64,000 nucleotides of DNA from Eledone cirrhosa. Lineage: Eukaryota. The translations under genes were made by a program, and so were the position numbers. The stretch is taken from contig OZ024740.1 in NCBI GenBank assembly GCA_964016885.1, positions 435,922,001-435,986,000 of the forward strand, in the 5' to 3' direction. The notes beneath the pieces are model-generated. The model did no database searches. It saw only the letters and a list, made by a program, of their open reading frames with translations, and was not told the origin of the DNA. Below are positions 1 to 64,000 of this stretch, piece by piece. Each line of letters starts with the position of its first letter. Position 1 is the stretch's first letter.

Positions 1-2258
1 AGACTCTGTCTATGTCATTAATCCTTTCATTACCATATTTCTAATAAAAGACACTGTCTATGTCATTAACCCTTTCATTACCATATTTCTAGTAAAAGAC
101 ACTGTCTATGTCATTAACCCTTTCATTACCATATTTCTAGTAAAAGACACTGTCTATGTCATTAACCCTTTCATTACCATATTTCTAGTAAAAGACACTG
201 TCTATGTCATTAAGCCTTTCATTACCATATTTCTAGTAAAAGACACTGTCTATGTCATTAACCCTTTCATTACCATATTTCTAGTAAAAGACACTGTCTA
301 TGTCATTAACCCTTTCATTACAATATTTCTAGTAAAAGACACTGTCTATGTCATTAACCCTTTCATTACCAGATTTCTAGTAAAAGACACTGTCTATGTC
401 ATTAACCCTTTCATTACCATATTTCTAATTAAAGACACTGTCTATGTCATTAACCCTTTCATTACCATATTTCTAGTAAAAGACACTGTCTATGTCATTA
501 ACCCTTTCATTACCATATTTCTAGTAAAAGACACTGTCTATGTCATTAACCCTTTCATTACCATATTTCTAGTAAAAGACACTGTCTATGTCATTAACCC
601 TTTCATTACCATATTTCTAATGAAATACACTGTCTATGTCATTAACCCTTTCATTAACATATTTCTAATGTAGACACTGTCTATATCATTAACCCTTTCA
701 TTACCATATTTCTAATGAAAGACACTGTCTATGTCATTAATCCTTTCATTACCATATTTCTAGTAAAAGACACTGTCTATGTCATTAACCCTTTCATTAC
801 CATATTTCTAATGAAAGACACTGTCTATGTCATTAACCCTTTCATAACCATATTTCTAGTAAAAGACACTGTCTATGTCATTAACCCTTTCATTACCATA
901 TTTCTAATGTAGACACTGTCTATGTCATTAACCCTTTCATTACCATATTTCTAATGAAAGACACTGTCTATGTCATTAATCCTTTCATTACCATATTTCT
1001 AGTAAAAGACACTGTCTATGTAATTAACCCTTTCATTACTATATTTCTAGTAAAAGACACTGTCTATGTCATTAACCCTTTCATTACCATATTTCTAATG
1101 AAAGACACTGTCTATGTCATTAACCCTTTCATAACCATATTTCTAGTAAAAGACACTGTCTATGTCATTAACCCTTTCATTACCATATTTCTAATGTAGA
1201 CACTGTCTATGTCATTAACCCTTTCATTACCATATTTCTAATATAGACACTGTCTATGTCATTAACCCTTTCATTACCATATTTCTAATATAGACACTGT
1301 CTATGTCATTAACCCTTTCATTACCATATTTCTAATGAAAGACACTGTCTATGTCATTAATCCTTTCATTACCATATTTCTAATGAAAGACACTGTCTAT
1401 GTCATAACCCTTTCATTGCCGTATTTCTAGTAAAAGACACTGTCTATGTCATTAACCCTTTCATTACCATATTTCTAATGAAAGACACTGTCTATGTCAT
1501 TAACCCTTTCATTACCATATTTCTAATGAAAGATATTGCCTATGTCATTAACCCTTTCATTACCATATTTCTAATGAAAGACACTGTCTATGTCTTTAAC
1601 CCTTTCATTACTATATTTCTAGTAAAAGACACTGTCTATGTCATTAACCCTTTCATTACCATATTTTTAATGAAAGACACTGTCTATGTCATTAACCCTT
1701 TCATTACCATATTTCTAATGAAAGACACTGTCTATGTCATTAACCTTTTCATTACCATATTTCTAATGAAAGACACTGCCTATGACATTAACCCTTTCAT
1801 TACCATATTTCTAGTAAAATCCACTGTCTATGTCATTAACCCTTTCATTACCATATTTCTAATGAAAGACACTGTCTATGTCATTAACCCTTTCATTACC
1901 ATATTTCTAATGTAGACACTGTCTATGTCATTAACCCTTTCATTACCATATTTCTAATGAAAGACACTATCTATGTCATTCACCCTTTCATTACCATATT
2001 TCTAATGAAAGACACTGTCTATGTCATTAACCCTTTCATTACCATATTTCTAATGAAAGACACTGTCTATGTCATTAACCCTTTCATTACCATATTTCTA
2101 ATGAAACGCACTGTCTATGTCATTAACCCTTTCATTACCATATTTCTAATGAAAGACACTGTCTACGTCATTAACCCTTTCATTACCATATTTCTAATGA
2201 AAGACAGTGTCTATGTCATTAACCCTTTCATTACCATATTTCTAATGAAAGACACTAC
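1..2258. repeat. 48-bp minisatellite (TTAACCCTTTCATTACCATATTTCTA[A/G]T[G/A]AAAGACACTGTCTATGTCA), ~47 copies, runs off the left edge; unit is the left end of a TTAA MITE
   Basis: Direct 48-bp periodicity with occasional 47-bp units (AATGTAGAC); unit start matches the MITE left end at 29832. Confidence 0.97.
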
Positions 2259-2310
2259 CTGTGATATTCAAATCATTTTGAAAATAGGAATTTGAAAGGA
2301 TTTATTAATA
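2219..2310 (+). mobile_element. Left portion of a TTAA-CCCTT MITE, truncated by the LINE 3' end
   Basis: The last satellite unit continues into unique sequence GAATTTGAAAGGATTTATTAA, resembling GAATTTTGAGGGATATACTAA inside the MITE at 29832-30034. Confidence 0.6.
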
Positions 2311-5603: not shown

Positions 5604-5724
5604 TATATATAGGAAAAGAGTCAGGACGCCGACGACTGAGCTCCAGCTGTTTCGACAGCTAGATCCGAACTATATATATATATATTAAGGGCGAAAACAC
5701 TTCCTTGAGTGAGGGTTTCTTCTA

Positions 5725-8700
5725 TGAAGACCTTCTGCTGTCCAGCTCTCCTCAGAGTTTATCTCTGAAGACCTGCTGTCCAGCTCTCCTCAGAGTTTAT
5801 CTCTGAAGACCTGCTGTCCAGCTCTCCTCAGAGTTTATCTCTGAAGACCTGCTGTCCAGCTCTCCTCAGAGTTTATCTCTGAAGACCTGCTGTCCAGCTC
5901 TCCTCAGAGTTTATCTCTGAAGACCTGCTGTCCAGCTCTCCTCAGAGTTTATCTCTGAAGACCTGCTGTCCAGCTCTCCTCAGAGTTTATCTCTGAAGAC
6001 CTGCTGTCCAGCCCTCCTCAGAGATTATCTCTGAAGGCCTTCTGCTGTCTAGCTCTCGTCAGAGTTTATCTCTGAAGACCTTCTGCTGTCCAGCTCTCCT
6101 CAGAGTTTATCTCTGAAGACCTGCTGTCCAGCTCTCCTCAGACTTTGTCCCTGAAGACCTGCTGTCCAGCTCTCCTCAGAGTTTATCTCTGAAGACCTTC
6201 TGCTGTCCAGCTCTCCTCAGAGTTTATCTCTGAAGACCTGCTGTCCAGCTCTCCTCAGAGTTTATCTCTGAAGACCTGCTGTCCAGCTCTCCTCAGAGTT
6301 TATCTCTTAAGGCCTTCTGCTGTTCAGCTCTCCTCAGAGTTTATCTCTGAAGACCTGCTGTCCAGCTCTCCTCAGAGTTTATCTCTGAAGACCTTCTGTT
6401 GTCCAGCTCTCCTCAGAGTTTGTCTCTGAAGACCTGCTGTCCAGCTCTCGTCAGAGTTTATCTCTGAAGACCTTCTGTTGTGCAGCTCTCCTCAGAGTTT
6501 ATCTCTGAAGACCTGCTGTCCAGCTCTCCTCAGAGTTTATCTCTGAAGACCTGCTGTCCAGCTCTCCTCAGAGTTTATCTCTGAAGACCTGCTGTCCAGC
6601 TCTCCTCAGAGTTTATCTCTGAAGACATGCTGTCCAGCTCTCCTCAGAGTTTATCTCTGAAGACCTTCTGCTGTTCAGCTCTCCTCAGAGTTTATCTCTG
6701 AAGACCTGCTGTCCAGCTATCCTCAGAGTTTATCTCTGAAGATCTGCTGTTCATCTCTCCTCAGAGTTTATCTCTGAAGACCTGCTGTCCAGCTCTCCTC
6801 AGAGTTTATCTCTGAAGACCTTCTGTTGTCCAGCTCTCCTCAGAGTTTATCTCTGAAGAACTGCTGTCCAGCTCTCCTCAGGGTTTATCTCTGAAGACCT
6901 GCTGTCCAGCTTTCCTCAGAGTTTATCTCTGAAGACCTGCTGTCCAGCTCTCCTCAGAGTTTATCTCTGAAGACCTGCTGTCCAGCTCTCCTCAGAGTTT
7001 ATCTCTGAAGGCCTTCTGCTGTCCAGCTCTCCTCACGGTTTATCTCTGAAGACCTGCTGTCCAGCTCTCCTCAGAGTTTATCTCTGAAGACCTGCTATCC
7101 AGCTCTCCTCAGAGTTTATCTCTGAAGGCCTTCTGCTGTCCAGCTCTCCTCAGAGTTTATCTCTGAAGACCTGCTGTCTAGCTCTCCTCAGAGTTTATCT
7201 CTGAAGACCTGCTGTCCAGCTCTTCTCAGAGTTTATCTCTGAAGACATGCTGTCCAGCTCTCCTCAGAGTTTATCTCTGAAGACCTGCTGTCCAGCTCTC
7301 CTCAGAGTTTATCTCTGAAGACCTGCTGTCCATCTCTCCTCAGAGTTTATCTCTGAAGACCTGCTGTCCATCTCTCCTCAGAGTTTATCTCTGAAGACCT
7401 TCTGTTGTCCAGCTCTCCTCAGAGTTTATCTCTGAAGACCTGCTGTCCAGCTCTCCTCAGAGTTTATCTCTGAAGACCTGCTGTCCATCTCTCCTCAGAG
7501 TTTATCTCTGAAGACCTGCTGTCCAGCTCTCCTCAGAGTTTATCTCTGAAGACATGCTGTCCAGCTCTCCTCAGAGTTTATCTCTGAAGACCTTCTGTTG
7601 TCCAGCTCTCCTCAGAGTTTATCTCTGAAGACCTTCTGCTGTCCAGCTCTTTTCAGAGTTTATCTCTGAAGACGTTCTGCTGTCCAGCTCTCCTCAGAGT
7701 TTATCTCTGAAGACCTGCTGTCCATCTCTCCTCAGAGTTTATCTCTGAAGACCTGCTGTCCAGCTCTCCTCAGAGTTTATCTCTGAAGACCTGCTGTCCA
7801 GCTCTCCTCAGAGTATATCTCTGAAGACCTTCTGTTGTCCAGCTCTCCTCAGAGTTTATCTCTGAAGACCTGCTGTCCAGCTCTCCTCAGCGTTTATCTC
7901 TGAAGACCTGCTGTCCAGATCTCCTCAGAGTTTATCTCTGAAGACCTTCTGTTGTCCAGCTCTCCTCAGAGTTTATCTCTGAAGACCTGCTGTCCATCTC
8001 TCCTCAGAGTTTATCTCTGAAGAACTGCTGTCCAGCTCTCCTCAGAGTTTATCGCTGAAGACCTGCTGTCCAGCTCTCCTCAGAGTTTATCTCTGAAGAC
8101 CTTCTGCTGTCCAGCTCTCCTCAGAATTTATCTCTGAAGACCTTCTGCTGTCCAGCTCTCCTCAGAGTTTATCTCTGAAGACCTGCTGTCCAGCTCTCCT
8201 CAGAGTTTATCTCTGAAGACCTGCTGTCCAGCTCTCCTCAGAGTTTATCTCTGAAGACCTGCTGTCCAGCTCTCCTCAGAGTTTATCTCTGAAGACCTGC
8301 TGTCCAGCCCTCCTCAGAGATTATCTCTGAAGACCTGCTGTCTAGCTCTCCTCAGAGTTTATCTCTGAAGACCTGCTGTCCAGCTCTCCTCAGAGTTTAG
8401 CTCTGAAGGCCTTCTGCTGTCCAGCACTCCTCAGAGTTTATCTCTGAAGACCTGCAGTCCAGCTCTCCTCAGAGTTTATCTCTGAAGACCTGCTGTCCAG
8501 CTCTCCTCAGAGTTTATCTCTGAAGACCTTCTGCTGTCCAGCTCTCCTCAGAGTTTATCTCTGAAGACCTGCTGTCCAGCTCTCCTCAGACTTTGTCCCT
8601 GAAGACCTGCTGTCCAGCTCTCCTCAGAGTTTATCTCTGAAGACCTTCTGCTGTCCAGCTCTCCTCAGAGTTTATCTCTGAAGACCTGCTGTCCAGCTCT

Positions 8701-11700
8701 CCTCAGAGTTTATCTCTGAAGACCTGCTGTCCAGCTCTCCTCAGAGTTTATCTCTGAAGACATGCTGTCCAGCTCTCCTCAGAGTTTATCTCTGAAGACC
8801 TTCTGTTGTCCAGCTCTCCTCAGAGTTTATCTCTGAAGACCTGCTGTCCAGCTCTCCTCAGGGTTTATCTCTGAAGACCTGCTGTCCAGCTTTCCTCAGA
8901 GTTTATCTCTGAAGACCTGCTGTCCAGCTCTCCTCAGAGTTTATCTCTGAAGACCTGCTGTCCAGCTCTCCTCAGAGTTTATCTCTGAAGGCCTTCTGCT
9001 GTCCAGCTCTCCTCACGGTTTATCTCTGAAGACCTGCTGTCCAGCTCTCCTCAGAGTTTATCTCTGAAGACCTGCTATCCAGCTCTCCTCAGAGTTTATC
9101 TCTGAAGGCCTTCTGCTGTCCAGCTCTCCTCAGAGTTTATCTCTGAAGACCTGCTGTCTAGCTCTCCTCAGAGTTTATCTCTGAAGACCTGCTGTCCAGC
9201 TCTTCTCAGAGTTTATCTCTGAAGACATGCTGTCCAGCTCTCCTCAGAGTTTATCTCTGAAGACCTGCTGTCCAGCTCTCCTCAGAGTTTATCTCTGAAG
9301 ACCTGCTGTCCAGCTCTCCTCAGAGTTTATCTCTGAAGACCTGCTGTCCATCTCTCCTCAGAGTTTATCTCTGAAGACCTGCTGTCCATCTCTCCTCAGA
9401 GTTTATCTCTGAAGACCTTCTGTTGTCCAGCTCTCCTCAGAGTTTATCTCTGAAGACCTGCTGTCCAGCTCTCCTCAGAGTTTATCTCTGAAGACCTGCT
9501 GTCCATCTCTCCTCAGAGTTTATCTCTGAAGACCTGCTGTCCAGCTCTCCTCAGAGTTTATCTCTGAAGACATGCTGTCCAGCTCTCCTCAGAGTTTATC
9601 TCTGAAGACCTGCTGTCCAGCTCTCCTCAGAGTTTATCTCTGAAGACCTTCTGTTGTCCAGCTCTTTTCAGAGTTTATCTCTGAAGACGTTCTGCTGTCC
9701 AGCTCTCCTCAGAGTTTATCTCTGAAGACCTGCTGTCCATCTCTCCTCAGAGTTTATCTCTGAAGACCTGCTGTCCAGCTCTCCTCAGAGTTTATCTCTG
9801 AAGACCTGCTGTCCAGCTCTCCTCAGAGTATATCTCTGAAGACCTTCTGTTGTCCAGCTCTCCTCAGAGTTTATCTCTGAAGACCTGCTGTCCAGCTCTC
9901 CTCAGCGTTTATCTCTGAAGACCTGCTGTCCAGATCTCCTCAGAGTTTATCTCTGAAGACCTTCTGTTGTCCAGCTCTCCTCAGAGTTTATCTCTGAAGA
10001 CCTGCTGTCCAGCTCTCCTCAGAGTTTATCTCTGAAGAACTGCTGTCCAGCTCTCCTCAGAGTTTATCGCTGAAGACCTGCTGTCCAGCTCTCCTCAGAG
10101 TTTATCTCTGAAGACCTTCTGCTGTCCAGCTCTCCTCAGAATTTATCTCTGAAGACCTTCTGCTGTCCAGCTCTCCTCAGAGTTTATCTCTGAAGACCTG
10201 CTGTCCAGCTCTCCTCAGAGTTTATCTCTGAAGACCTGCTGTCCAGCTCTCCTCAGAGTTTATCTCTGAAGACCTGCTGTCCAGCTCTCCTCAGAGTTTA
10301 TCTCTGAAGACCTGCTGTCCAGCCCTCCTCAGAGATTATCTCTGAAGACCTGCTGTCTAGCTCTCCTCAGAGTTTATCTCTGAAGACCTGCTGTCCAGCT
10401 CTCCTCAGAGTTTATCTCTGAAGGCCTTCTGCTGTCCAGCACTCCTCAGAGTTTATCTCTGAAGACCTGCAGTCCAGCTCTCCTCAGAGTTTATCTCTGA
10501 AGACCTGCTGTCCAGCTCTCCTCAGAGTTTATATCTGAAGACCTTCTGCTGTCCAGCTCTCCTCAGAGTTTATCTCTGAAGACCTGCTGTCCAGCTCTCC
10601 TCAGACTTTGTCCCTGAAGACCTGCTGTCCAGCTCTCCTCAGAGTTTATCTCTGAAGTCCTTCTGCTGTCCAGCTCTCCTCAGAGTTTATCTCTGAAGAC
10701 CTGCTGTCCAGCACTCCTCAGAGTTTATCTCTGAAGACCTGCTGTCCAGCCCTCCTCAGAGTTTATCTCTGAAGACCTTCTGCTGTCCAGCTCTCCTCAG
10801 AGTTTATCTCTGAAGACCTGCTGTCCAGCTCTTCTCAGAGATTATCTCTGAAGACCTGCTGTCTAGCTCTCCTCAGAGTTTATCTCTGAAGACCTGCTGT
10901 CCAGCTCTCCTCAGAGTTTATCTCTTAAGGCCTTCTGCTGTCCAGCACTACTCAGAGTTTATCTCTGAAGACCTGCTGTCCAGCTATCCTCAGAGTTTAT
11001 CTCTGAAGACCTGCTGTCCAGCTCTCCTCAGAGTTTATCTCTGAAGACCTGCTGTCCAGCTCTCCTCAGAGTTTATCTCTGAAGACCTGCTGTCCAGCTC
11101 TCCTCAGAGTTTATCTCTGAAGACCTGCTGTCCAGCTCTTCTCAGAGTTTGTCTCTGAAGACCTGCTGTCCAGCTCTCGTCAGAGTTTATCTCTGAAGAC
11201 CTTCTGTTGTCCAGCTCTCCTCAGAGTTTATCTCTGAAGACCTGCTGTCCAGCTCTCCTCAGAGTTTATCTCTGAAGACCTGCTGTCCAGCTCTCCTCAG
11301 AGTTTATCTCTGAAGGCCTTCTGCTGTCCAGCTCTCTTCAGAGTTTATCTCTGAAGGCCTTCTGCTGTCCAGCTCTCCTCAGAGATTATCTCTGAAGACC
11401 TGCTGTCCAGCTCTCCTCAGAGTTTATCTCTTAAGGCCTTCTGCTGTTCAGCTCTCCTCAGAGTTTATCTCTGAAGACATGCTGTCCAGCTCTCCTCAGA
11501 GTTTATCTCTGAAGACCTTCTGTTGTCCAGCGCTCCTCAGAGTTTGTCTCTGAAGACCTGCTGTCCAGCTCTCGTCAGAGTTTATCTCTGAAGACTTTCT
11601 GTTGTGCAGGTCTCCTCAGAGTTTATCTCTGAAGAGCTACTGTCCAGCTCTTCTCAGAGCTTATCTCTGAAGACCTTCTGTTGTCCAGCTCTCCTCAGAG

Positions 11701-23700: not shown

Positions 23701-23972
23701 GAGTTTATCTCTGAAGACCTGCTGTCCAGCTCTCCTCAGAGTTTATCTCTGAAGACCTGCTGTCCAGCTCTCCTCAGAGTTTATCTCTGAAGACCTGCTG
23801 TCCAGCTCTCCTCAGAGTTTATCTCTGAAGACCTGCTGTCCAGCTCTTCTCAGAGTTTATCTCTGAAAACCTGCTGTCCAGCTCTTCTCCGAGTTTATCT
23901 CTGAAGACCTGCTTCTCCAGCTCTCTTCAGAGTTTATCTCTGAAGACCTGCTGTCTAACTCCCCTGAGAGTT
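5725..23972. repeat. 38-bp satellite (ATCTCTGAAGACCTGCTGTCCAGCTCTCCTCAGAGTTT) with 41-bp and 3-bp-deletion variants, ~470 copies, 18.2 kb
   Basis: Direct periodicity (5761 to 5799); variant units recur at fixed long offsets (1980, 4428 bp). Confidence 0.98.
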
Positions 23973-28835: not shown

Positions 28836-28934
28836 CTCTAATCCAGGCCCTTCACCTGTTGGAGGAACCCCTTGCTGGTTGACCTCTAATCCAGGGCCTT
28901 CTCCTGTTGGAAGAACCCCTTGCTGGTTGGCCTC
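28836..28934. repeat. Two-copy 48-bp tandem duplication
   Basis: CTCTAATCCAGG...GAACCCCTTGCTGGTTG at 28836 and 28884 with a few mismatches. Confidence 0.85.
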
Positions 28935-49400: not shown

Positions 49401-52400
49401 ATGTGTGTATTACCTGATTGTGTTGTATGTGGCCCTAGATGTGTGTATTACCTGATTGTGTTGTATGTGGTCCTAGATGTGTGTATTACCTGATTATGTG
49501 TTGTATGTGGTCCTAGATGTGTGTATTATCTGATTATGTGTTGTATGTGGTCCTAGATGTGTGTATTACCTGATTGTGTTGTATGTGGCCCTAGATGTGT
49601 GTATTACCTGATTATGTGTTGTATGTGGTCCTAGATGTGTGTAATATCTGATTGTGTTGTATGTGGCCCTAGATGTGTGTATTACCTGATTGTGTTGTAT
49701 GTGGTCCTAGATGTGTGTATTACCTGATTATGTGTTGTATGTGGTCCTAGATGTGTGTATTATCTGATTATGTGTTGTATGTGGTCCTAGATGTGTGTAT
49801 TACCTGATTGTGTTGTATGTGGCCCTAGATGTGTGTATTACCTGATTATGTGTTGTATGTGGTCCTAGATGTGTGTATTACCTGATTATGTGTTGTATGT
49901 GGTCCTAGATGTGTGTATTATCTGATTATGTGTTGTATGTGGTCCTAGATGTGTGTATTACCTGATTATGTGTTGTATGTGGTCCTAGATGTGTGTATTA
50001 TCTGATTGTGTTGTATGTGGTCCTAGATGTGTGTATTATCTGATTATGTGTTGTATGTGGTCCTAGATGTGTGTATTATCTGATTGTGTTGTATGTGGTC
50101 CTAGATGTGTGTATTATCTGATTATGTGTTGCATGTGGTCCTTGATGTGTGTATTACCTGATTATGTGTTGTATGTGGTCCTAGATGTGTGTATTATCTG
50201 ATTGTGTTGTATGTGGTCCTAGATGTGTGTATTACCTGATTATGTGTTGTATGTGGTCCTAGATGTGTGTATTATCTGATTGTGTAGTATGTGGTCCTAG
50301 ATGTGTGTATTATCTGATTGTGTTGTATGTGGTCCTAGATGTGTGTATTACCTGATTGTGTTGTATGTGGTCCTAGATGTGTGTATTACCTGATTATGTG
50401 TTGTATGTGGTCCTAGATGTGTGTATTATCTGATTGTGTTGTATGTGGCCCTAGATGTGTGTATTACCTGATTGTGTTGTATGTGGTCCTAGATGTGTGT
50501 ATTATCTGATTGTGTTGTATGTGGCCCTAGATGTGTGTATTACCTGATTGTGTTGTATGTGGTCCTAGATGTGTGTATTACCTGATTATGTGTTGTATGT
50601 GGTCCTAGATGTGTGTATTATTTGATTGTGTTGTATGTGGCCCTAGATGTGTGTATTACCTGATTGTGTTGTATGTGGTCCTAGATGTGTGTATTACCTG
50701 ATTGTGTTGTATGTGGCCCTAGATGTGTGTATTACCTGATTGTGTTGTATGTGGTCCTAGATGTGTGTATTATCTGATTGTGTTGTATGTGGTCCTAGAT
50801 GTGTGTATTACCTGATTATGTGTTGTATGTGGTCCTAGATGTGTGTATTACCTGATTGTGTTGTATGTGGCCCTAGATGTGTGTATTACCTGATTGTGTT
50901 GTATGTGGCCCTAGATGTGTGTATTACCTGATTGTGTTGTATGTGGTCCTAGATGTGTGTATTACCTGATTATGTGTTGTATGTGGTCCTAGATGTGTGT
51001 ATTACCTGATTATGTGTTGTATGTGGCCCTAGATGTGTGTATTACCTGATTGTGTTCTATGTGGTCCTAGATGTGTGTATTACCTGATTATGTGTTGTAT
51101 GTGGTCCTAGATGTGTGTATTATCTGATTATGTGTTGTATGTGGTCCCAGATGTGTGTATTACCTGATTATGTGTTGTATGTGGTCCTAGATGTGTGTAT
51201 TACCTGATTGTGTTGTATGTGGTCCTAGATGTGTGTATTACCTGATTATGTGTTGTATGTGGTCCTAGATGTGTGTATTATCTGATTGTATTGTATGTGG
51301 TCCTAGATGTGTGTATTACCTGATTGTGTTGTATGTGGTCCTAGATGTGGGTATTACCTGATTATGTGTTGTATGTGGTCCTAGATGTGTGTATTATCTG
51401 ATTATGTGTTGTATGTGGTCCTAGATGTGTGTATTACCTGATTGTGTTGTATGTGGCCCTAGATGTGTGTATTACCTGATTATGTGTTGTATGTGGTCCT
51501 AGATGTGTGTAATATCTGATTGTGTTGTATGTGGCCCTAGATGTGTGTATTACCTGATTGTGTTGTATGTGGTCCTAGATGTGTGTATTACCTGATTATG
51601 TGTTGTATGTGGTCCTAGATGTGTTTATTATCTGATTATGTGTTGTATGTGGTCCTAGATGTGTGTATTACCTGATTGTGTTGTATGTGGCCCTAGATGT
51701 GTGTATTACCTGATTATGTGTTGTATGTGGTCCTAGATGTGTGTATTACCTGATTATGTGTTGTATGTGGTCCTAGATGTGTGTATTATCTGATTATGTG
51801 TTGTATGTGGTCCTAGATGTGTGTATTACCTGATTATGTGTTGTATGTGGTCCTAGATGTGTGTATTATCTGATTGTGTTGTATGTGGTCCTAGATGTGT
51901 GTATTATCTGATTATGTGTTGTATGTGGTCCTAGATGTGTGTATTATCTGATTGTGTTGTATGTGGTCCTAGATGTGTGTATTATCTGATTATGTGTTGT
52001 ATGTGGTCCTTGATGTGTGTATTACCTGATTATGTGTTGTATGTGGTCCTAGATGTGTGTATTATCTGATTGTGTTGTATGTGGTCCTAGATGTGTGTAT
52101 TACCTGATTATGTGTTGTATGTGGTCCTAGATGTGTGTATTATCTGATTGTGTAGTATGTGGTCCTAGATGTGTGTATTATCTGATTGTGTTGTATGTGG
52201 TCCTAGATGTGTGTATTACCTGATTGTGTTGTATGTGGTCCTAGATGTGTGTATTACCTGATTATGTGTTGTATGTGGTCCTAGATGTGTGTATTATCTG
52301 ATTGTGTTGTATGTGGCCCTAGATGTGTGTATTACCTGATTGTGTTGTATGTGGTCCTAGATGTGTGTATTATCTGATTGTGTTGTATGTGGCCCTAGAT

Positions 52401-55400
52401 GTGTGTATTACCTGATCGTGTTGTATGTGGTCCTAGATGTGTGTATTACCTGATTATGTGTTGTATGTGGTCCTAGATGTGTGTATTATTTGATTGTGTT
52501 GTATGTGGCCCTAGATGTGTGTATTACCTGATTGTGTTGTATGTGGTCCTAGATGTGTGTATTACCTGATTGTGTTGTATGTGGTCCTAGATGTGTGTAT
52601 TATCTGATTGTGTTGTATGTGGTCCTAGATGTGTGTATTACCTGATTATGTGTTGTATGTGGTCCTAGATGTGTGTATTACCTGATTGTGTTGTATGTGG
52701 CCCTAGATGTGTGTATTACCTGATTATGTGTTGTATGTGGTCCTAGATGTGTGTATTATCTGATTATGTGTTGTATGTGGTCCTAGATGTGTGTATTACC
52801 TGATTATGTGTTGTATGTGGTCCTAGATGTGTGTATTACCTGATTGTGTTGTATGTGGTCCTAGATGTGTGTATTACCTGATTATGTGTTGTATGTGGCC
52901 CTAGATATGTGTATTACCTGATTATGTGTTGTATGTGGCCCTAGATGTGTGTATTACCTGATTATGTGTTGTATGTGGTCCTAGATGTGTGTATAACCTG
53001 ATTATGTGTTGTATGTGGCCCTAGATGTGTGTATTATCTGATTATGTGTTGTATGTGGTCCTAGATGTGTGTATTACCTGATTATGTGTTGTATGTGGTC
53101 CTAGATGTGTGTATTACCTGATTATGTGTTGTATGTGGCCCTAGATGTGTGTATTATCTGATTATGTGTTGTATGTGGTCCTAGATGTGTGTATTACCTG
53201 ATTATGTGTTGTATGTGGCCCTAGATGTGTGTATTACCTGATTATGTGTTGTATGTGGTCCTAGATGTGTGTATTACCTGATTGTGTTGTATGTGGTCCT
53301 AGATGTGTGTATTACCTGATTATGTGTTGTATGTGGTCCTAGATGTGTGTATTACCTGATTATGTGTTTATGTGGCCCTAGATGTGTGTATTACCTGATT
53401 GTGTTGTATGTGGCCCTAGATGTGTGTATTACCTGATTATGTGTTGTATGTGGTCCTAGATGTGTGTATTACCTGATTGTGTTGTATGTGGTCCTAGATG
53501 TGTGTATTACCTGATTATGTGCTGTATGTGGTCCTAGATGTGTGTATTACCTGATTATGTGTTGTATGTGGCCCTAGATGTGTGTATTACCTGATTGTGT
53601 TGTATGTGGCCCTAGATGTGTGTATTACCTGATTATGTGTTGTATGTGGTCCTAGATGTGTGTATTACCTGATTATGTGTTGTATGTGGTCCTAGATGTG
53701 TGTATTACCTGATTGTGTTGTATGTGGCCCTAGATGTGTGTATTACCTGATTATGTGTTGTATGTGGTCGTAGATGTGTGTATTACCTGATTATGTGTTG
53801 TATGTGGTCCTAGATGTGTGTATTACCTGATTGTGTTGTATGTGGCCCTAGATGTGTGTATTACCTGATTATGTGTTGTATGTGGCCCTAGATGTGTGTA
53901 ATACCTGATTATGTGTTGTATGTGGTCCTAGATGTGTGTATTACCTGATTATGTGTTGTATGTGGTCCTAGATGTGTGTATTATCTGATTATGTGTTGTA
54001 TGTGGTCCTAGATGTGTGTATTATCTGATTATGTGTTGTATGTGGTCCTAGATGTGTGTATTATCTGATTATGTGTTGTATGTGGTCCTAGATGTGTGTA
54101 TTACCTGATTGTGTTGTATGTGGCCCTAGATGTGTGTATTACCTGATTATGTGTTGTATGTGGCTCTAGATGTGTGTATTACCTGATTGTGTTGTATGTG
54201 GTCCTAGATGTGTGTATTACCTGATTATGTGTTGTATGTGGTCCTAGATGTGTGTATTACCTGCTTGTGTGTTGTATGTGGCCCTAGATGTGTGTATTAC
54301 CTGATTGTGTTGTATGTGGCCCTAGATGTGTGTATTACCTGATTATGTGTTGTATGTGGCCCTAGATGTGTGTATTACCTGATTATGTGTTGTATGTGGC
54401 CCTAGATGTGTGTATTACCTGATTATGTGTTGTATGTGGTCCTTGATGTGTGTATTACCTGATTATGTGTTGTGTGTGGTCCTAGATGTGTGTATTACCT
54501 GATTATGTGTTGTATGTGGTCCTAGATGTGTGTATTACCTGATTGTGTTGTATGTGGTCCTAGATGTGTGTATTACCTGATTATGTGTTGTATGTGGTCC
54601 TAGATGTGTGTATTACCTGATTATGTGTTGTATGTGGCCCTAGATGTGTGTATTACCTGATTATGTGTTGTATGTGGTCCTAGATGTGTGTATTACCTGA
54701 TTGAGTTGTATGTGGCCCTAGATGTGTGTATTACCTGATTATGTGTTGTATGTCGTCCTAGATGTGTGTATTACCTGATTATGTGTTGTATGTGGTCCTA
54801 GATGTGTGTATTACCTGATTGTGTTATATGTGGTCCTAGATGTGTGTATTACCTGATTGTGTTGTATGTGGCCCTAGATGTGTGTATTACCTGATTATGT
54901 GTTGTATGTGGTCCTAGATGTGTGTATTACCTGATTGTGTTGTATGTGGTCCTAGATGTGTGTATTACCTGATTATGTGTTGTATGTGGTCCTAGATGTG
55001 TGTATTACCTGATTATGTGTTGTATGTGGTCCTAGATGTGTGTATTACCTGATTGTGTTGTATGTGGCCCTAGATGTGTGTATTACCTGATTGTGTTGTA
55101 TGTGGCCCTAGATGTGTGTATTACCTGATTGTGTTGTATGTGGTCCTAGATGTGTGTATTACCTGATTATGTGTTGTATGTGGTCCTAGATGTGTGTATT
55201 ATCTGATTGTGTTGTATGTGGTCCTAGATGTGTGTATTATCTGATTATGTGTTGTATGTGGTCCTAGATGTGTGTATTACCTGATTATGTGTTGTATGTG
55301 GTCCTAGATGTGTGTATTACCTGATTATGTGTTTATGTGGCCCTAGATGTGTGTATTACCTGATTGTGTTGTATGTGGCCCTAGATGTGTGTATTACCTG

Positions 55401-58400
55401 ATTATGTGTTGTATGTGGTCCTAGATGTGTGTATTACCTGATTGTGTTGTATGTGGTCCTAGATGTGTGTATTACCTGATTATGTGCTGTATGTGGTCCT
55501 AGATGTGTGTATTACCTGATTATGTGTTGTATGTGGCCCTAGATGTGTGTATTACCTGATTGTGTTGTATGTGGCCCTAGATGTGTGTATTACCTGATTA
55601 TGTGTTGTATGTGGTCCTAGATGTGTGTATTACCTGATTATGTGTTGTATGTGGTCCTAGATGTGTGTATTACCTGATTGTGTTGTATGTGGCCCTAGAT
55701 GTGTGTATTACCTGATTATGTGTTGTATGTGGTCGTAGATGTGTGTATTACCTGATTATGTGTTGTATGTGGTCCTAGATGTGTGTATTACCTGATTGTG
55801 TTGTATGTGGCCCTAGATGTGTGTATTACCTGATTATGTGTTGTATGTGGCCCTAGATGTGTGTAATACCTGATTATGTGTTGTATGTGGTCCTAGATGT
55901 GTGTATTACCTGATTATGTGTTGTATGTGGTCCTAGATGTGTGTATTATCTGATTATGTGTTGTATGTGGTCCTAGATGTGTGTATTATCTGATTATGTG
56001 TTGTATGTGGTCCTAGATGTGTGTATTATCTGATTATGTGTTGTATGTGGTCCTAGATGTGTGTATTACCTGATTGTGTTGTATGTGGCCCTAGATGTGT
56101 GTATTACCTGATTATGTGTTGTATGTGGCTCTAGATGTGTGTATTACCTGATTGTGTTGTATGTGGTCCTAGATGTGTGTATTACCTGATTATGTGTTGT
56201 ATGTGGTCCTAGATGTGTGTATTACCTGCTTGTGTGTTGTATCTGGCCCTAGATGTGTGTATTACCTGATTGTGTTGTATGTGGCCCTAGATGTGTGTAT
56301 TACCTGATTATGTGTTGTATGTGGCCCTAGATGTGTGTATTACCTGATTATGTGTTGTATGTGGCCCTAGATGTGTGTATTACCTGATTATGTGTTGTAT
56401 GTGGTCCTTGATGTGTGTATTACCTGATTATGTGTTGTGTGTGGTCCTAGATGTGTGTATTACCTGATTATGTGTTGTATGTGGTCCTAGATGTGTGTAT
56501 TACCTGATTGTGTTGTATGTGGTCCTAGATGTGTGTATTACCTGATTATGTGTTGTATGTGGTCCTAGATGTGTGTATTACCTGATTATGTGTTGTATGT
56601 GGCCCTAGATGTGTGTATTACCTGATTATGTGTTGTATGTGGTCCTAGATGTGTGTATTACCTGATTGAGTTGTATGTGGCCCTAGATGTGTGTATTACC
56701 TGATTATGTGTTGTATGTCGTCCTAGATGTGTGTATTACCTGATTATGTGTTGTATGTGGTCCTAGATGTGTGTATTACCTGATTGTGTTATATGTGGTC
56801 CTAGATGTGTGTATTACCTGATTGTGTTGTATGTGGCCCTAGATGTGTGTATTACCTGATTATGTGTTGTATGTGGTCCTAGATGTGTGTATTACCTGAT
56901 TGTGTTGTATGTGGTCCTAGATGTGTGTATTACCTGATTATGTGTTGTATGTGGTCCTAGATGTGTGTATTACCTGATTATGTGTTGTATGTGGTCCTAG
57001 ATGTGTGTATTACCTGATTGTGTTGTATGTGGCCCTAGATGTGTGTATTACCTGATTGTGTTGTATGTGGCCCTAGATGTGTGTATTACCTGATTGTGTT
57101 GTATGTGGTCCTAGATGTGTGTATTACCTGATTATGTGTTGTATGTGGTCCTAGATGTGTGTATTATCTGATTGTGTTGTATGTGGTCCTAGATGTGTGT
57201 ATTATCTGATTATGTGTTGTATGTGGTCCTAGATGTGTGTATTATCTGATTGTGTTGTATGTGGTCCTAGATGTGTGTATTATCTGATTATGTGTTGTAT
57301 GTGGTCCTAGATGTGTGTATTACCTGATTGTGTTGTATGTGGTCCTAGATGTGTGTATTACCTGATTATGTGTTGTATGTGGTCCTAGATGTGTGTATTA
57401 CCTGATTATGTGTTGTATGTGGCCCTAGATGTGTGTATTACCTGATTGTGTTGTATGTGGCCCTAGATGTGTGTATTACCTGATTATGTGTTGTATGTGG
57501 TCCTAGATGTGTGTATTACCTGATTATGTGCTGTATGTGGTCCTAGATGTGTGTATTACCTGATTATGTGTTGTATGTGGCCCTAGATGTGTGTATTACC
57601 TGATTATGTGTTGTATGTGGCCCTAGATGTGTGTATTACCTGATTATGTGTTGTATGTGGTCCTAGATGTGTGTATTACCTGATTATGTGCTGTATGTGG
57701 TCCTAGATGTGTGTATTACCTGATTATGTGGCCCTAGATGTGTGTATTACCTGATTGTGTTGTATGTGGCCCTAGATGTGTGTATTACCTGATTATGTGT
57801 TGTATGTGGCCCTAGATGTGTGTATTACCTGATTGTGTTGTATGTGGTCCTAGATGTGTGTATTACCTGATTATGTGCTGTATGTGGTCCTAGATGTGTG
57901 TATTACCTGATTGTGTTGTATGTGGTCCTAGATGTGTGTCTTACCTGATTGTGTTGTATGTGGCCCTAGATGTGTGTATTACCTGATTGTGTTGTATGTG
58001 GCCCTAGATGTGTGTATTACCTGATTATGTGTTGTATGTGGCCCTAGATGTGTGTATTACCTGATTGTGTTGTATGTGGCCCTAGATGTGTGTATTACCT
58101 GATTGTGTTGTATGTGGCCCTAGATGTGTGTATTACCTGATTATGTGTTGTATGTGGCCCTAGATGTGTGTATTACCTGATTGTGTTGTATGTGGTCCTA
58201 GATGTGTGTCTTACCTGATTATGTGCTGTATGTGGTCCTAGATGTGTGTATTACCTGATTATGTGTTGTATGTAGCCCTAGATGTGTGTATTACCTGATT
58301 GTGTTGTATGTGGCCCTAGATGTGTGTATTACCTGATTATGTGTTGTATGTGGCCCTAGATGTGTGTATTACCTGATTGTGTTGTATGTGGCCCTAGATG

Positions 58401-61400
58401 TGTGTATTACCTGATTATGTGTTGTGTGTGGCCCTAGATGTGTGTATTACCTGATTGTGTTGTATGTGGCCCTAGATGTGTGTATTACCTGATTATGTGT
58501 TGTATGTGGTCGTAGATGTGTGTATTACCTGATTATGTGTTGTATGTCGTCCTAGATGTGTGTATTACCTGATTGTGTTGTATGTGGCCCTAGATGTGTG
58601 TAATACCTGATTATGTGTTGTATGTGGTCCTAGATGTGTGTATTACCTGATTATGTGTTGTATGTGGTCCTAGATGTGTGTATTATCTGATTATGTGTTG
58701 TATGTGGTCCTAGATGTGTGTATTATCTGATTATGTGTTGTATGTGGTCCTAGATGTGTGTATTATCTGATTATGTGTTGTATGTGGTCCTAGATGTGTG
58801 TATTACCTGATTGTGTTGTATGTGGCCCTAGATGTGTGTATTACCTGATTATGTGTTGTATGTGGCCCTAGATGTGTGTATTACCTGATTGTGTTGTATG
58901 TGGTCCTAGATGTGTGTATTACCTGATTATGTGTTGTATGTGGTCCTAGATGTGTGTATTACCTGATTATGTCTTGTATGTGGCCCTAGATGTGTGTATT
59001 ACCTGATTGTGTTGTATGTGGCCCTAGATGTGTGTATTACCTGATTATGTGTTGTATGTGGCCGTAGATGTGTGTATTACCTGATTATGTGTTGTATGTG
59101 GCCCTAGATGTGTGTATTACCTGATTATGTGTTGTATGTGGTCCTTGATGTGTGTATTACCTGATTATGTGTTTTGTGTGGTCCTAGATGTGTGTATTAC
59201 CTGATTATGTGTTGTATGTGGTCCTAGATGTGTGTATTACCTGATTGTGTTGTATGTGGTCCTAGATGTGTGTATTACCTGATTATGTGTTGTATGTGGT
59301 CCTAGATGTGTGTATTACCTGATTATGTGTTGTATGTGGTCCTAGATGTGTGTATTACCTGATTGTGTTGTATGTGGCCCTAGATGTGTGTATTACCTGA
59401 TTATGTGTTGTATGTCGTCCTAGATGTGTGTATTACCTGATTATGTGTTGTATGTGGTCCTAGATGTGTGTATTACCTGATTGTGTTATATGTGGTCCTA
59501 GATGTGTGTATTACCTGATTGTGTTGTATGTGGCCCTAGATGTGTGTATTACCTGATTATGTATTGTATGTGGTCCTAGATGTGTGTATTACCTGATTGT
59601 GTTGTATGTGGTCCTAGATGTGTGTATTACCTGATTGTGTTGTATGTGGTCCTAGATGTGTCATTTACCTGATTATGTGTTGTATGTGGTCCTAGATGTG
59701 TGTATTACCTGATTATGTGTTGTATGTGGTCCTAGATGTGTGTATTACCTGATTGTGTTGTATGTGGCCCTAGATGTGTGTATTACCTGATTGTGTTGTA
59801 TGTGGCCCTAGATGTGTGTATTACCTGATTGTGTTGTATGTGGTCCTAGATGTGTGTATTACCTGATTATGTGTTGTATGTGGTCCTAGATGTGTGTATT
59901 ACCTGATTATGTGTTGTATGTGGTCCTAGATGTGTGTATTACCTGATTATGTGTTGTATGTGGCCCTAGATGTGTGTATTACCTGATTGTGTTGTATGTG
60001 GCCCTAGATGTGTGTATTACCTGATTATGTGTTGTATGTGGTCCTAGATGTGTGTATTACCTGATTGTGTTGTATGTGGTCCTAGATGTGTGTATTACCT
60101 GATTATGTGTTGTATGTGGTCCTAGATGTGTGTATTATCTGATTGTGTTGTATGTGGTCCTAGATGTGTGTATTACCTGATTATGTGTTGTATGTGGTCC
60201 TAGATGTGTGTATTACCTGATTGTGTTGTATGTGGCCCTAGATGTGTGTATTACCTGATTGTGTTGTATGTGGCCCTAGATGTGTGTATTACCTGATTGT
60301 GTTGTATGTGGTCCTAGATGTGTGTATTACCTGATTATGTGTTGTATGTGGTCCTAGATGTGTGTATTATCTGATTATGTGTTGTATGTGGTCCTAGATG
60401 TGTGTATTACCTGATTGTGTTGTATGTGGCCCTAGATGTGAGTATTACCTGATTATGTGTTGTATGTGGTCCTAGATGTGTGTATTACCTGATTATGTGT
60501 TGTATGTGGTCCTAGATGTGTGTATTATCTGATTATGTGTTGTATGTGGTCCTAGATGTGTGTATTACCTGATTATGTGTTGTATGTGGTCCTAGATGTG
60601 TGTATTATCTGATTCTGTTGTATGTGGTCCTAGATGTGTGTATTATCTGATTATGTGTTGTATGTGGTCCTAGATGTGTGTATTATCTGATTGTGTTGTA
60701 TGTGGTCCTAGATGTGTGTATTATCTGATTATGTGTTGTATGTGGTCCTTGATGTGTGTATTACCTGATTATGTGTTGTATGTGGTCCTAGATGTGTGTA
60801 TTATCTGATTGTGTTGTATGTGGTCCTAGATGTGTGTATTACCTGATTATGTGTTGTATGTGGTCCTAGATGTGTGTATTATCTGATTGTGTAGTATGTG
60901 GTCCTAGATGTGTGTATTATCTGATTGTGTTGTATGTGGTCCTAGATGTGTGTATTATCTGATTCTGTTGTATGTGGTCCTAGATGTGTGTATTACCTGA
61001 TTATGTGTTGTATGTGGTCCTAGATGTGTGTATTATCTGATTGTGTTGTATGTGGCCCTAGATGTGTGTATTACCTGATTGTGTTGTATGTGGTCCTAGA
61101 AGTGTGTATTACCTTATTATGTGTTGTATGTGGTCCTAGATGTGTGTATTACCTGATTGTGTTGTATGTGGCCCTAGATGTGTGTATTACCTGATTATGT
61201 GTTGTATGTGGTCCTAGATGTGTGTATTATCTGATTATGTGTTGTATGTGGTCCTAGATGTGTGTATTACCTGATTATGTGTTGTATGTGGTCCTAGATG
61301 TGTGTATTACCTGATTGTGTTGTATGTGGTCCTAGATGTGTGTATTACCTGATTATGTGTTGTATGTGGCCCTAGATGTGTGTATTACCTGATTATGTGT

Positions 61401-64000
61401 TGTATGTGGCCCTAGATGTGTGTATTATCTGATTGTGTTGTATGTGGCCCTAGATGTGTGTATTACCTGATTGTGTTGTATGTGGTCCTAGATGTGTGTA
61501 TTATCTGATTGTGTTGTATGTGGCCCTAGATGTGTGTATTACCTGATTGTGTTGTATGTGGTCCTAGATGTGTGTATTACCTGATTATGTGTTGTATGTG
61601 GTCCTAGATGTGTGTATTATCTGATTGTGTTGTATGTGGCCCTAGATGTGTGTATTACCTGATTGTGTTGTATGTGGTCCTAGATGTGTGTATTACCTGA
61701 TTATGTGTTGTATGTGGTCCTAGATGTGTGTATTATCTGATTGTGTTGTATGTGGCCCTAGATGTGTGTATTACCTGATTGTGTTGTATGTGGTCCTAGA
61801 TGTGTGTATTACCTGATTATGTGTTGTATGTGGTCCTAGATGTGTGTATTACCTGATTGTGTTGTATGTGGCCCTAGATGTGTGTATTACCTGATTATGT
61901 GTTGTATGTGGTCCTAGATGTGTGTATTATCTGATTATGTGTTGTATGTGGTCCTAGATGTGTGTATTACCTGATTATGTGTTGTATGTGGTCCTAGATG
62001 TGTGTATTACCTGATTGTGTTGTATGTGGTCCTAGATGTGTGTATTACCTGATTATGTGTTGTATGTGGCCCTAGATGTGTGTATTACCTGATTATGTGT
62101 TGTATGTGGCCCTAGATGTGTGTATTACCTGATTATGTGTTGTATGTGGTCCTAGATGTGTGTATTACCTGATTATGTGTTGTATGTGGCCCTAGATGTG
62201 TGTATTATCTGATTATGTGTTGTATGTGGTCCTAGATGTGTGTATTACCTGATTATGTGTTGTATGTGGTCCTAGATGTGTGTATTACCTGATTATGTGT
62301 TGTATGTGGCCCTAGATGTGTGTATTATCTGATTATGTGTTGTATGTGGTCCTAGATGTGTGTATTACCTGATTATGTGTTGTATGTGGCCCTAGATGTG
62401 TGTATTACCTGATTATGTGTTGTATGTGGTCCTAGATGTGTGTATTACCTGATTGTGTTGTATGTGGTCCTAGATGTGTGTATTACCTGATTATGTGTTG
62501 TATGTGGTCCTAGATGTGTGTATTACCTGATTATGTGTTTATGTGGCCCTAGATGTGTGTATTACCTGATTGTGTTGTATGTGGTCCTAGATGTGTGTAT
62601 TACCTGATTGTGTGTTGTATGTGGTCCTAGATGTGTGTATTACCTGATTGTGTTGTATGTGGTCCTAGATGTGTGTATTACCTGATTATGTGCTGTATGT
62701 GGTCCTAGATGTGTGTATTACCTGATTATGTGTTGTATGTGGCCCTAGATGTGTGTATTACCTGATTGTGTTGTATGTGGCCCTAGATGTGTGTATTACC
62801 TGATTATGTGTTGTATGTGGTCCTAGATGTGTGTATTACCTGATTATGTGTTGTATGTGGTCCTAGATGTGTGTATTACCTGATTGTGTTGTATGTGGCC
62901 CTAGATGTGTGTATTACCTGATTATGTGTTGTATGTGGTCGTAGATGTGTGTATTACCTGATTATGTGTTGTATGTGGTCCTAGATGTGTGTATTACCTG
63001 ATTGTGTTGTATGTGGCCCTAGATGTGTGTATTACCTGATTATGTGTTGTATGTGGCCCTAGATGTGTGTAATACCTGATTATGTGTTGTATGTGGTCCT
63101 AGATGTGTGTATTACCTGATTATGTGTTGTATGTGGTCCTAGATGTGTGTATTATCTGATTATGTGTTGTATGTGGTCCTAGATGTGTGTATTATCTGAT
63201 TATGTGTTGTATGTGGTCCTAGATGTGTGTATTACCTGATTGTGTTGTATGTGGCCCTAGATGTGTGTATTACCTGATTATGTGTTGTATGTGGCCCTAG
63301 ATGTGTGTATTACCTGATTGTGTTGTATGTGGTCCTAGATGTGTGTATTACCTGATTATGTGTTGTATGTGGTCCTAGATGTGTGTATTACCTGCTTATG
63401 TGTTGTATGTGGCCCTAGATGTGTGTATTACCTGATTGTGTTGTATGTGGCCCTAGATGTGTGTATTACCTGATTATGTGTTGTATGTGGCCCTAGATGT
63501 GTGTATTACCTGATTATGTGTTGTATGTGGCCCTAGATGTGTGTATTACCTGATTATGTGTTGTATGTGGTCCTTGATGTGTGTATTACCTGATTATGTG
63601 TTGTGTGTGGTCCTAGATGTGTGTATTACCTGATTATGTGTTGTATGTGGTCCTAGATGTGTGTATTACCTGATTGTGTTGTATGTGGTCCTAGATGTGT
63701 GTATTACCTGATTATGTGTTGTATGTGGTCCTAGATGTGTGTATTACCTGATTATGTGTTGTATGTGGCCCTAGATGTGTGTATTACCTGATTATGTGTT
63801 GTATGTGGTCCTAGATGTGTGTATTACCTGATTGTGTTGTATGTGGCCCTAGATGTGTGTATTACCTGATTATGTGTTGTATGTCGTCCTAGATGTGTGT
63901 ATTACCTGATTATGTGTTGCATGTGGTCCTAGATGTGTGTATTACCTGATTGTGTTATATGTGGTCCTAGATGTGTGTATTACCTGATTGTGTTGTATGT
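34408..64000. repeat. 40/38-bp satellite (AGATGTGTGTATTA[C/T]CTGATT[AT]GTGTTGTATGTGG[T/C]CCT), ~750 copies, >29.5 kb, runs off the right edge
   Basis: Direct periodicity; three common binary variants; rare markers recur at 2082, 1965 and 4315 bp offsets. Confidence 0.98.

What the first reader, a model, noticed from the sequence alone, without database searches (positions are those of the whole stretch)
1..64000. Side-by-side series of transposon-seeded minisatellite birth, from 2 to ~750 copies
Seen: 2-copy duplications (28836, 29748) and arrays of ~23, ~30, ~47, ~92, ~470 and ~750 copies, all with unrelated 34-64 bp units. At least four, probably five, of the six large arrays start in a recognisable SINE or MITE piece. 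Inference: a largely sequence-independent process in this region duplicates 30-65 bp segments and amplifies them to kilobases, a local satellite nursery rather than the spread of one satellite family.
Basis: partly seen in the sequence, partly recalled or inferred. Interest (0 to 1): 0.7.

Follow-up and report, generated by a model that had tools for sequence, protein, structure and literature searches.

The report
Transposon-slice minisatellites swelling near chromosome ends
Six long tandem repeats fill two introns of an octopus-type gene and five are slices of recognisable jumping elements, but the same repeats sit at many other places in the genome, so this is likely no local nursery: they likely arise again and again at fixed weak spots of common elements and likely swell by recombination near chromosome ends, much as described in frogs and reptiles.

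Summary
The arrays are real, and five of six lie in a SINE or MITE. The reading 'local, sequence-independent nursery, staged 2 to 750 copies' meets its own refutation criterion. All six units, and the 28836 'duplication', form arrays at other loci; only the 53-bp duplication at 29748 is private.

The true series runs across paralogues. The 40-bp unit lies in a young hAT-type MITE: 16 of 29 copies hold one unit between 10-bp direct repeats, 13 hold 2-84, this one about 1,230, another over 3,000. Multi-unit copies are scattered over the element tree. The 48-bp SINE-end array has identical or near-identical units on three contigs while the attached SINE bodies are only 71-74% alike, which points to copying between sites.

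Growth is regional on a large scale. Arrays of 1 kb or more fill about half of the sampled DNA within 45 Mb of the ends of the two largest contigs (mostly C1), against 6% inside. The 49-kb EVI5 intron is spliced in transcript-like contigs.

Frog subtelomeres and reptile SINE-derived satellites are close precedents. This scan noted the same pattern before on other DNA of this genome.

The parts
1..2256 (+). Array A, 48-bp unit = first 48 bp of a TTAA-bounded MITE; begins at -15,469, about 370 copies, 17.7 kb; truncated MITE body follows at about 2257-2310
   Evidence: junction has 11,419 exact matches genome-wide; tandem also on C24 and C2
2330..5390 (-). Broken LINE (RVT_1 and zf-RVT pieces in different frames) between arrays A and B; bystander; limits approximate
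5686..5734 (+). Short leader shared by most B-family loci; parent element unclassified
5735..23972 (+). Array B, 38-bp unit x470, a shortened form of a 42-bp multi-locus family bounded by GTTTCTT repeats; holds an exact 3,223-bp block repeat at 4,428 spacing
24313..28710 (-). Array C, 48-bp unit x92 = last 32 bp of a SINE plus 16 bp of altered tail; T-rich tail side at 24290-24312, SINE body continues at 28711-28760
28836..28934 (+). Two copies of 48 bp: short member of a 48-56-bp multi-locus family at the end of a dispersed element whose body follows from 28935
29748..29853 (+). Two copies of 53 bp (about 30 bp of unique flank plus the MITE start): the only private duplication; no microhomology at its borders
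29831..30035 (+). TTAA-bounded MITE (TTAACCCTTT...AAAGGGTTAA), dispersed family, consensus about 230 bp
29967..31453 (+). Array D, 64-bp unit x23 = 3' end of that MITE, between an internal TTAAA and the terminal TTAA
31795..33079 (-). SINE (31795-32037) with array E, 32-34-bp head unit x31 (32038-33079)
33918..34142 (+). EVI5-like exon (75 codons, RabGAP-TBC) between introns of 49.4 and 50.3 kb
34230..34407 (+). 8-bp target site (34230-34237) and 5' part, with terminal inverted repeat, of a young hAT-type MITE
34408..64000 (+). Array F, 38-40-bp unit; continues to 82,696 (about 1,230 copies, 48 kb); MITE body resumes after it and ends at a 59-bp array, with no 3' inverted repeat in the sequence printed; exact 3,817-bp block repeat at 4,315 spacing

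Best explanation
The window is one sample of a chromosome-end zone in which multi-locus minisatellites made of transposon slices have reached tens of kilobases inside introns; they likely start at fixed weak spots of common elements, likely pass in part between related copies, and likely grow by unequal recombination, with no function shown. Step 1, seeding (shown): MITEs and SINEs are dispersed in many hundreds to thousands of copies. Step 2, birth (anatomy shown for F and D, mechanism inferred): a 30-65-bp slice between short direct repeats is duplicated, repeatedly, in different copies of a family. Step 3, spread (inferred; best for C, likely for A and E, suggestive for D): an array junction is copied into other, already diverged copies of the element by homology-directed repair. 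Step 4, growth (position effect and block repeats shown, mechanism inferred): in the distal tens of megabases arrays grow to 10-150 kb by unequal exchange in blocks of 2-4 kb. Step 5 (shown for one intron): the gene is spliced across them, so they are likely tolerated passengers.
For: Multi-locus arrays. F family picked by body, not array: 16 of 29 have one unit flanked by AGATGTGTGT twice, 13 of 29 have 2-84; 23 of 29 have exact 8-bp target duplications; multi-unit state needs 13 changes on the 36-row tree (shuffled mean 12.1; at least 5 forced by well-supported branches); some arrays carry variants also seen in single-unit copies. D: bodies of 19 array-bearing MITEs are no closer to each other (87.7%) than to 27 single-unit ones (87.6%). 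C: unit consensus identical to the window's at two of five other sites, 1 base off at two and 3 off at one, with the same derived junction, while attached bodies are 71-74% alike over about 50 bp. Position: 26 of 43 samples within 20 Mb of C1/C2 ends and 9 of 16 at 20-45 Mb hold an array of 1 kb or more, against 2 of 21 inside (Fisher p = 1.2e-4, first against last). Both giant F arrays lie 7-8 Mb from an end. Splicing.
Against: No recombination map, pedigree or second haplotype was seen, so unequal exchange is inferred. The distal effect is strong on C1 (22 of 31 samples within 20 Mb) but weaker on C2 (4 of 12) and on two small contigs (5 of 20). Distal position is not sufficient (F copies 0.6 Mb from the start of C23 and 4.4 Mb from the end of C15 hold 5 and 2 units) and not strictly needed (84 F units at C2:85.8 Mb; 9.1 kb of array at C2:250 Mb). 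The tree cannot tell gains from collapses. C, B and D loci were picked as best matches to the window's unit (39-40 scored of 201, 882 and 1,645 candidates), which inflates unit similarity. C's junction shows no microhomology, and the private 53-bp duplication has none, so short repeats are not required. Exact 3.2-3.8-kb block repeats could be assembly duplications.
Confidence: 0.72

Rival explanations
1. One reading: a local, largely sequence-independent process duplicates 30-65-bp segments here and amplifies them; the window shows successive stages.
For: The 53-bp duplication is unique (1 of 1 candidate) and has no microhomology. Many different units are amplified. B's 38-bp form differs from the 42-bp form of the other loci examined, so it changed in place.
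Against: 7 of 8 units recur in tandem elsewhere. Array density is similar over tens of megabases and at the other end of C1. F's birth spot is fixed by a 10-bp repeat.
Confidence: 0.06
2. Mobile cassettes: each array arose once and was carried about ready-made by its transposon; only the final size changed in place.
For: F arrays sit inside intact elements with target duplications. D arrays end exactly at the element end in most of 25 loci. C arrays keep a T-rich tail on one side and lack the SINE body at two of the four other sites where that end was seen, as truncated retrotransposition would give.
Against: 16 of 29 F copies have one unit and multi-unit copies are scattered on the tree. D bodies form no closer group. 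C bodies are 71-74% alike against 94-100% for unit consensus. No target duplication was seen around C arrays by eye (not tested formally).
Confidence: 0.12
3. The giant sizes are largely assembly artefacts (false duplication within tandem arrays).
For: Exact repeats of 3,223 bp in B and 3,817 bp in F. An F array on C22 ends at an assembly gap. EVI5's two halves lie on opposite strands, a likely scaffolding error nearby.
Against: F holds 78 unit variants in nested blocks that differ from copy to copy. No N lies in the window or its 100-kb flanks. Removing the exact blocks shortens B and F by about a quarter at most. The positional trend covers many unrelated units.
Confidence: 0.06
4. The arrays are kept by selection, for instance as intron-delay timers or chromatin or pairing elements of chromosome ends.
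For: They persist inside a conserved, spliced gene and in a defined chromosomal zone.
Against: Units are unrelated from intron to intron and intergenic position was not distinguished. F grew after an insertion only about 1% diverged from its family. No function was tested.
Confidence: 0.04

Closest known systems
Extended subtelomeres of Xenopus tropicalis and other frogs (Bredeson et al. 2024, PMC10794172; passages read; supplements not seen)
   Same: About 30-Mb distal zones rich in tandem arrays; some derive from SINE/tRNA-V, CR1 and Kolobok pieces; a 52-bp SINE-tail slice is expanded only in subtelomeric copies; unequal crossing over proposed, with cause and effect left open.
   Different: Frog arrays cover 10.67% of chromosomes overall and recombination was measured. 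Here about half of the sampled distal DNA is array, single arrays reach 18-150 kb inside introns, and no recombination data exist.
SINE-derived satellites (sSat1-3) of squamates (Vassetzky et al. 2023, PMC10702118; abstract and Discussion read)
   Same: Tandem repeats of a SINE portion with the SINE remainder at one end; up to 1,000 units; homogeneous within and between loci; longer loci prefer subtelomeres; only some primary duplications are amplified. Matches C and E.
   Different: Here MITEs contribute as much as SINEs and many unit families are inflated side by side. The contrast between diverged bodies and identical units is measured here for C.
MITE-borne tandem repeats miDNA4 and Xstir of Xenopus (seen only through reviews PMC9659126 and PMC6947457; passages)
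   Same: A monomer is born inside a MITE and amplified afterwards. Matches F, D and A.
   Different: Other transposon types (8-bp and TTAA target sites). F shows single-unit ancestors and repeated, scattered gains or losses in one young family.
Minisatellite birth between 5-10-bp direct repeats (Haber and Louis 1998, as described in review PMC6947457; passage)
   Same: F's single unit lies between two 10-bp repeats; D and B are bounded by 4-7-bp repeats.
   Different: C and the 53-bp duplication show no such repeats.
Satellite-filled giant introns of Drosophila Y genes kl-3 and kl-5 (PMC6508621; search listing only)
   Same: Introns made mostly of tandem repeat in an expressed gene.
   Different: Those are megabase introns of spermatocyte genes with a dedicated expression programme. 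Here 50-126-kb introns of a conserved RabGAP gene are filled with 30-80-bp units.

Membership tests
TE-derived minisatellite / satellite | Unit is a slice of a dispersed element, in register with the element remainder at the array end | tested here: met
   A, C, D, E, F; B inconclusive, only a 30-bp shared leader
TE-derived minisatellite / satellite | Single-unit parent copies exist elsewhere | tested here: met
   F 16 of 29; D 54 single or partial hits in 1.0 Mb; C 5 single SINE ends. None found for B in 1.0 Mb
Frog-type subtelomeric minisatellite expansion | Long arrays enriched in a distal zone of tens of megabases | tested here: met
   46% and 50% of bases within 20 and 20-45 Mb of ends, 6% inside; strong on C1, weaker on C2 and small contigs
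Frog-type subtelomeric minisatellite expansion | Elevated meiotic recombination in that zone | not testable with these tools
   No linkage map available
Frog-type subtelomeric minisatellite expansion | Slice expanded only in distal copies of the element | tested here: inconclusive
   Giant F arrays are distal, but an interior copy has 84 units and some distal copies have 2-5
hAT-superfamily non-autonomous element (label recalled), host of F | 8-bp target-site duplication | tested here: met
   23 of 29 exact, 2 with one mismatch, 4 unresolved
hAT-superfamily non-autonomous element (label recalled), host of F | Short terminal inverted repeats | tested here: met
   CACAGGTTCTCAAC / GTTGAGAACCTTTG; the 3' one was not seen in the window's copy
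hAT-superfamily non-autonomous element (label recalled), host of F | Autonomous partner with hAT transposase and matching ends | not tested
   No transposase search was run
TTAA-targeting MITE (piggyBac- or Kolobok-like; label recalled), host of A and D | TTAA on both sides of inverted ends | tested here: met
   the superfamily itself was not determined
tRNA-derived SINE (label recalled), host of C and E | tRNA-like head with A and B boxes | tested here: inconclusive
   Read by eye at 31980-32070; Rfam gave no tRNA match in 23900-34500 at E <= 1; dispersal shown
   Fails for A-F and the 28836 pair; met only for the 53-bp duplication
Hammerhead-bearing satellite (considered for B) | Hammerhead ribozyme core | tested here: not met
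   No hammerhead match at E <= 0.5 in three B loci

The most novel reading that the evidence does not exclude
Minisatellite junctions in this genome are contagious: once a derived unit exists it is copied by homology-directed repair into old, diverged copies of the same SINE or MITE on other chromosomes, and a 40-Mb end zone inflates any such seed to 10-150 kb inside working genes. Dated paralogues of one young MITE, from 1 to over 3,000 units, would then give a direct clock for satellite birth and growth.
Probability: 0.4. Interest if true: 0.62.

Novelty: new member of a known kind. Interest (0 to 1): 0.4.

Why it matters
How satellites arise from transposons is usually inferred from end products. 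Here one young element family holds single-unit ancestors, short arrays and 48-kb and 125-kb-plus arrays, so rates and position effects can be measured in one genome. The C family offers a test of copying between distant loci. The distal zone predicts where crossovers fall in an octopod and warns that short-read assemblies may miss much of it. I found no paper describing this in cephalopods (searches; term searches in two recent cephalopod genome papers), but the process is described in frogs and squamates, and this scan has already noted it at many sites of this genome.

Tried and rejected
A DNA search with the A dimer returned no candidates because common words are skipped; it says nothing on rarity, and a pattern search settled the point. 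Rfam found nothing meaningful in 23900-34500 and no hammerhead at B loci, so a ribozyme-satellite reading of B was dropped. The orthologous-intron test could not be done: runs of other species shared only 6-9% of words, and the one laid DNA run of another species (X5) gave repeat matches with no cover of the exon. No RNA holder was listed on record. The parent-SINE consensus for C rested on only 5 copies and was too noisy to use as an ancestor. D units are nearer the family consensus than their bodies (3.3% against 6.3% at non-CpG sites, 19 loci; 5.9% against 6.2% in 26 single-unit copies), but the loci were picked by unit similarity, so this is only suggestive. Enrichment of arrays in TEs over chance was not shown (background at least 51%). 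E had no genome-wide search; its other sites were found in samples. The neighbouring 31-, 39-, 41-, 59-, 60- and 83-bp arrays were only checked against the 1.0-Mb sample, without informative hits. The breakpoint between the two EVI5 halves was not found in four 10-kb stretches (no N).
Full report
Setting. The window is G000:C1:435,922,001-435,986,000, 6.9 Mb from the end of a 442.9-Mb contig in a 3.0-Gb genome. Its one exon (33918-34142) encodes 75 residues of a RabGAP-TBC domain, 100% identical to EVI5-like proteins of Octopus sinensis and Argonauta hians, so the animal is an octopod. The flanking exons lie at about -15,600 and +84,470, giving introns of 49.4 and 50.3 kb.

Observation. All eight tandem features are present at the stated places. 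A and F are cut by the window: A has about 370 copies (17.7 kb) and F about 1,230 (48 kb). The 100 kb on each side hold further arrays of 31 bp (40 kb), 83 bp (22 kb), 41 bp (over 70 kb) and others. Five of the six arrays are in register with a dispersed element. D is the last 64 bp of a TTAA-bounded MITE (40 scored of 2,514 candidates, on many contigs). A is the first 48 bp of a related MITE. C is a SINE 3' end and E a SINE head. F lies inside an element with short inverted ends. B shares only a 30-bp leader with its relatives. The family names hAT, TTAA MITE and tRNA SINE are recalled labels, tested only as listed under membership. TE origin is not by itself surprising: at least 51% of 125 kb of non-tandem DNA in 35 distal samples matches dispersed repeats in a 575-kb database.

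The units are not private. F is tandem at 19 other sites on 14 contigs at 93-100% identity among 40 scored of 173 candidates. B relatives (42-bp unit, 84-91%) form arrays at 9 other sites on 6 contigs among 39 of 882. C is tandem at 5 other sites on C15 and C21 in the 150 listed of 761 matches. D arrays of 2-37 copies were confirmed at 24 of 24 other loci examined (23 came from the 40 scored of 1,645, one was met in passing). The A junction has 11,419 exact matches and none for the reversed control; the first 100 listed include 11 other sites on C1, 6 of them within 5 Mb of the window. E recurs with 20 and 26 copies at 435.40 and 436.14 Mb. The pair at 28836 is a short member of a 48-56-bp family with 2 to over 31 copies elsewhere (40 scored of 332). 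Only the 53-bp duplication, which includes unique flank, matches itself alone, and it has no microhomology. The side-by-side 'series' is thus a mix of unrelated family members of different ages.

The real series is across paralogues. A search with the body of F's host element gave 915 candidates, the 40 scored at 97-100% identity. Of the best 29 other copies, 16 hold one unit between two AGATGTGTGT repeats and 13 hold 2 to 84; 23 have exact 8-bp target duplications. On a tree of 36 bodies (these 29, six array-picked copies and the window's; L055 was left out, and L057 as a duplicate of L248) the multi-unit state needs 13 changes, no fewer than shuffled labels (12.1), and at least 5 are forced by well-supported branches. 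Arrays therefore arise or collapse repeatedly in place; the direction is not resolved. End branches are about 0.013, so the 48-kb array grew within about 1% of sequence divergence. A second giant on C2 spans at least 408.517-408.642 Mb and is absent at 408.500 and 408.660 Mb: 125-157 kb if uninterrupted. For D, bodies of 19 array-bearing MITEs are 87.7% alike, the same as against (87.6%) and among (87.8%) 27 single-unit copies, so there is no young array-bearing subfamily.

Copying between sites. For C the unit consensus is identical to the window's at two of five other sites (C15 39.27 and 40.32-40.39 Mb), one base off at two more and three off on C21, all with the same derived junction. The SINE bodies attached in the window and at two C15 sites are only 71-74% alike over about 50 bp, against 57-69% to three single copies. 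Recent cassette transposition would keep bodies as alike as units. Independent births would not share the derived tail. Transfer between loci is the simplest reading, but the loci were picked by unit similarity and the bodies compared are short. E behaves alike: bodies 81% in two loci, no matching body in the third, near-identical units. I took this lead from earlier scan notes and tested it here.

Growth is regional. In 100 position-picked 10-kb samples, arrays of 1 kb or more with units of 10 bp or more occur in 26 of 43 samples within 20 Mb of an end of C1 or C2 (46% of bases), 9 of 16 at 20-45 Mb (50%), 2 of 21 further in (6%) and 5 of 20 on C15 and C24 (11%). Sampling was denser at C1's right end. 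C1 is the clearest case (22 of 31 within 20 Mb, both ends); C2 is weaker (4 of 12). Almost every sample has a different unit. Giant B arrays lie 11 and 16 Mb from contig starts and giant C arrays 5-7 Mb from ends. Exceptions exist in both directions (see evidence against). Within arrays, F shows 78 unit variants in nested blocks, and B and F hold exact block repeats of 3.2 and 3.8 kb at about 4.4-kb spacing. This fits recent unequal exchange but could include assembly duplication.

The gene works across the arrays. A 1,647-nt contig of run X4 (same species label as the best holder; library not on record) matches 33916-34143 without a difference. It joins the upstream exon directly to the window's exon, skipping the 49.4-kb intron that holds A-E; a contig of X15 (another organism, RNA guessed) shows the same join. 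The downstream join was not displayed directly; the contig runs on for about 620 nt that do not lie on the intron.

Mechanism. Shown: dispersed parents, single-unit ancestors with flanking short repeats (F), scattered multi-unit state, multi-locus junctions, distal enrichment, block repeats, splicing. Inferred: slippage or unequal repair at short repeats as the first step, homology-directed transfer between copies, unequal crossing over as the amplifier, and neutrality.

Comparison. Frog genomes have about 30-Mb subtelomeres in which TE-derived minisatellites are expanded, with unequal crossing over proposed (PMC10794172, passages). Squamate SINE-derived satellites have the same anatomy as C and E, up to 1,000 units, with longer loci subtelomeric (PMC10702118, abstract and Discussion). 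MITE-borne repeats and the short-repeat birth model are reviewed in PMC6947457 and PMC9659126 (passages). Supplements of these papers were not read; those of PMC10794172 bear on how array sizes compare. Five searches and term searches in two cephalopod genome papers found no account for cephalopods. Unreviewed notes of this scan describe the same pattern at other sites of this genome; they are not independent support.

Verdict. Observation confirmed; interpretation partly supported. A new, extreme member of a known kind; interest 0.4.

Noticed in passing
G000:C1:434.87-436.15 Mb: EVI5 is split by strand: exons for residues 1-368 lie on + at 435.675-436.147 Mb, those for 367-832 on - at 435.187-434.868 Mb. 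Likely a mis-oriented scaffold block, since a real inversion would break the gene; breakpoint not found.
   Followed up: partly
window -62,274..-22,173, 85,067..107,615 and 113,220..183,770 (L004-L008, L013-L020, L267-L268): Further giant arrays in EVI5 introns: 31 bp (about 40 kb), 83 bp (22.5 kb), 41 bp (about 70 kb), then 33-, 18- and 29-bp arrays; introns of the 3' half carry arrays too.
   Followed up: partly
L012:9151-10000 and L013:1-58 (window 83,151-84,058): A 59-bp array starts where F's host element stops; the element's 3' inverted repeat and target duplication were not seen.
   Followed up: partly
window 31980-32040 and 33077-33135: A diverged copy of about 60 bp of the SINE head lies on both sides of array E, suggesting an older, larger head duplication before the 34-bp array.
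   Followed up: no
window 29831-31453: One MITE copy has a private duplication over its 5' end and a family-wide array at its 3' end; several other copies listed show tandem duplications of other segments.
   Followed up: partly
G000:C1:431.09-435.9 Mb: Seven A-junction sites, the window's included, cluster within 5 Mb against five in the preceding 431 Mb, consistent with spread to neighbours or with easier growth distally.
   Followed up: no
window 2330-5390, minus strand: Broken LINE with RVT_1 and zf-RVT pieces, inserted just after A's MITE body.
   Followed up: partly
L003:7623-9094 (window -72,377..-70,906): A 310-bp unit in 4.7 copies at 100% identity, flanked by (TA)n; very recent or an assembly artefact.
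   Followed up: no
L082 (C1:420.0 Mb) and L187 (C2:415.5 Mb): Other arrays (49 and 58 bp) include the TTAA-MITE terminal motif, so MITE ends recur in units of several lengths.
   Followed up: no
window 29250-29702: Impure (ACC/ATC)n microsatellite, 151 copies.
   Followed up: no
L012:8900-9080: F's host element has an internal palindrome of about 170 bp centred near ACTATAGT, with varying deletions among copies.
   Followed up: no
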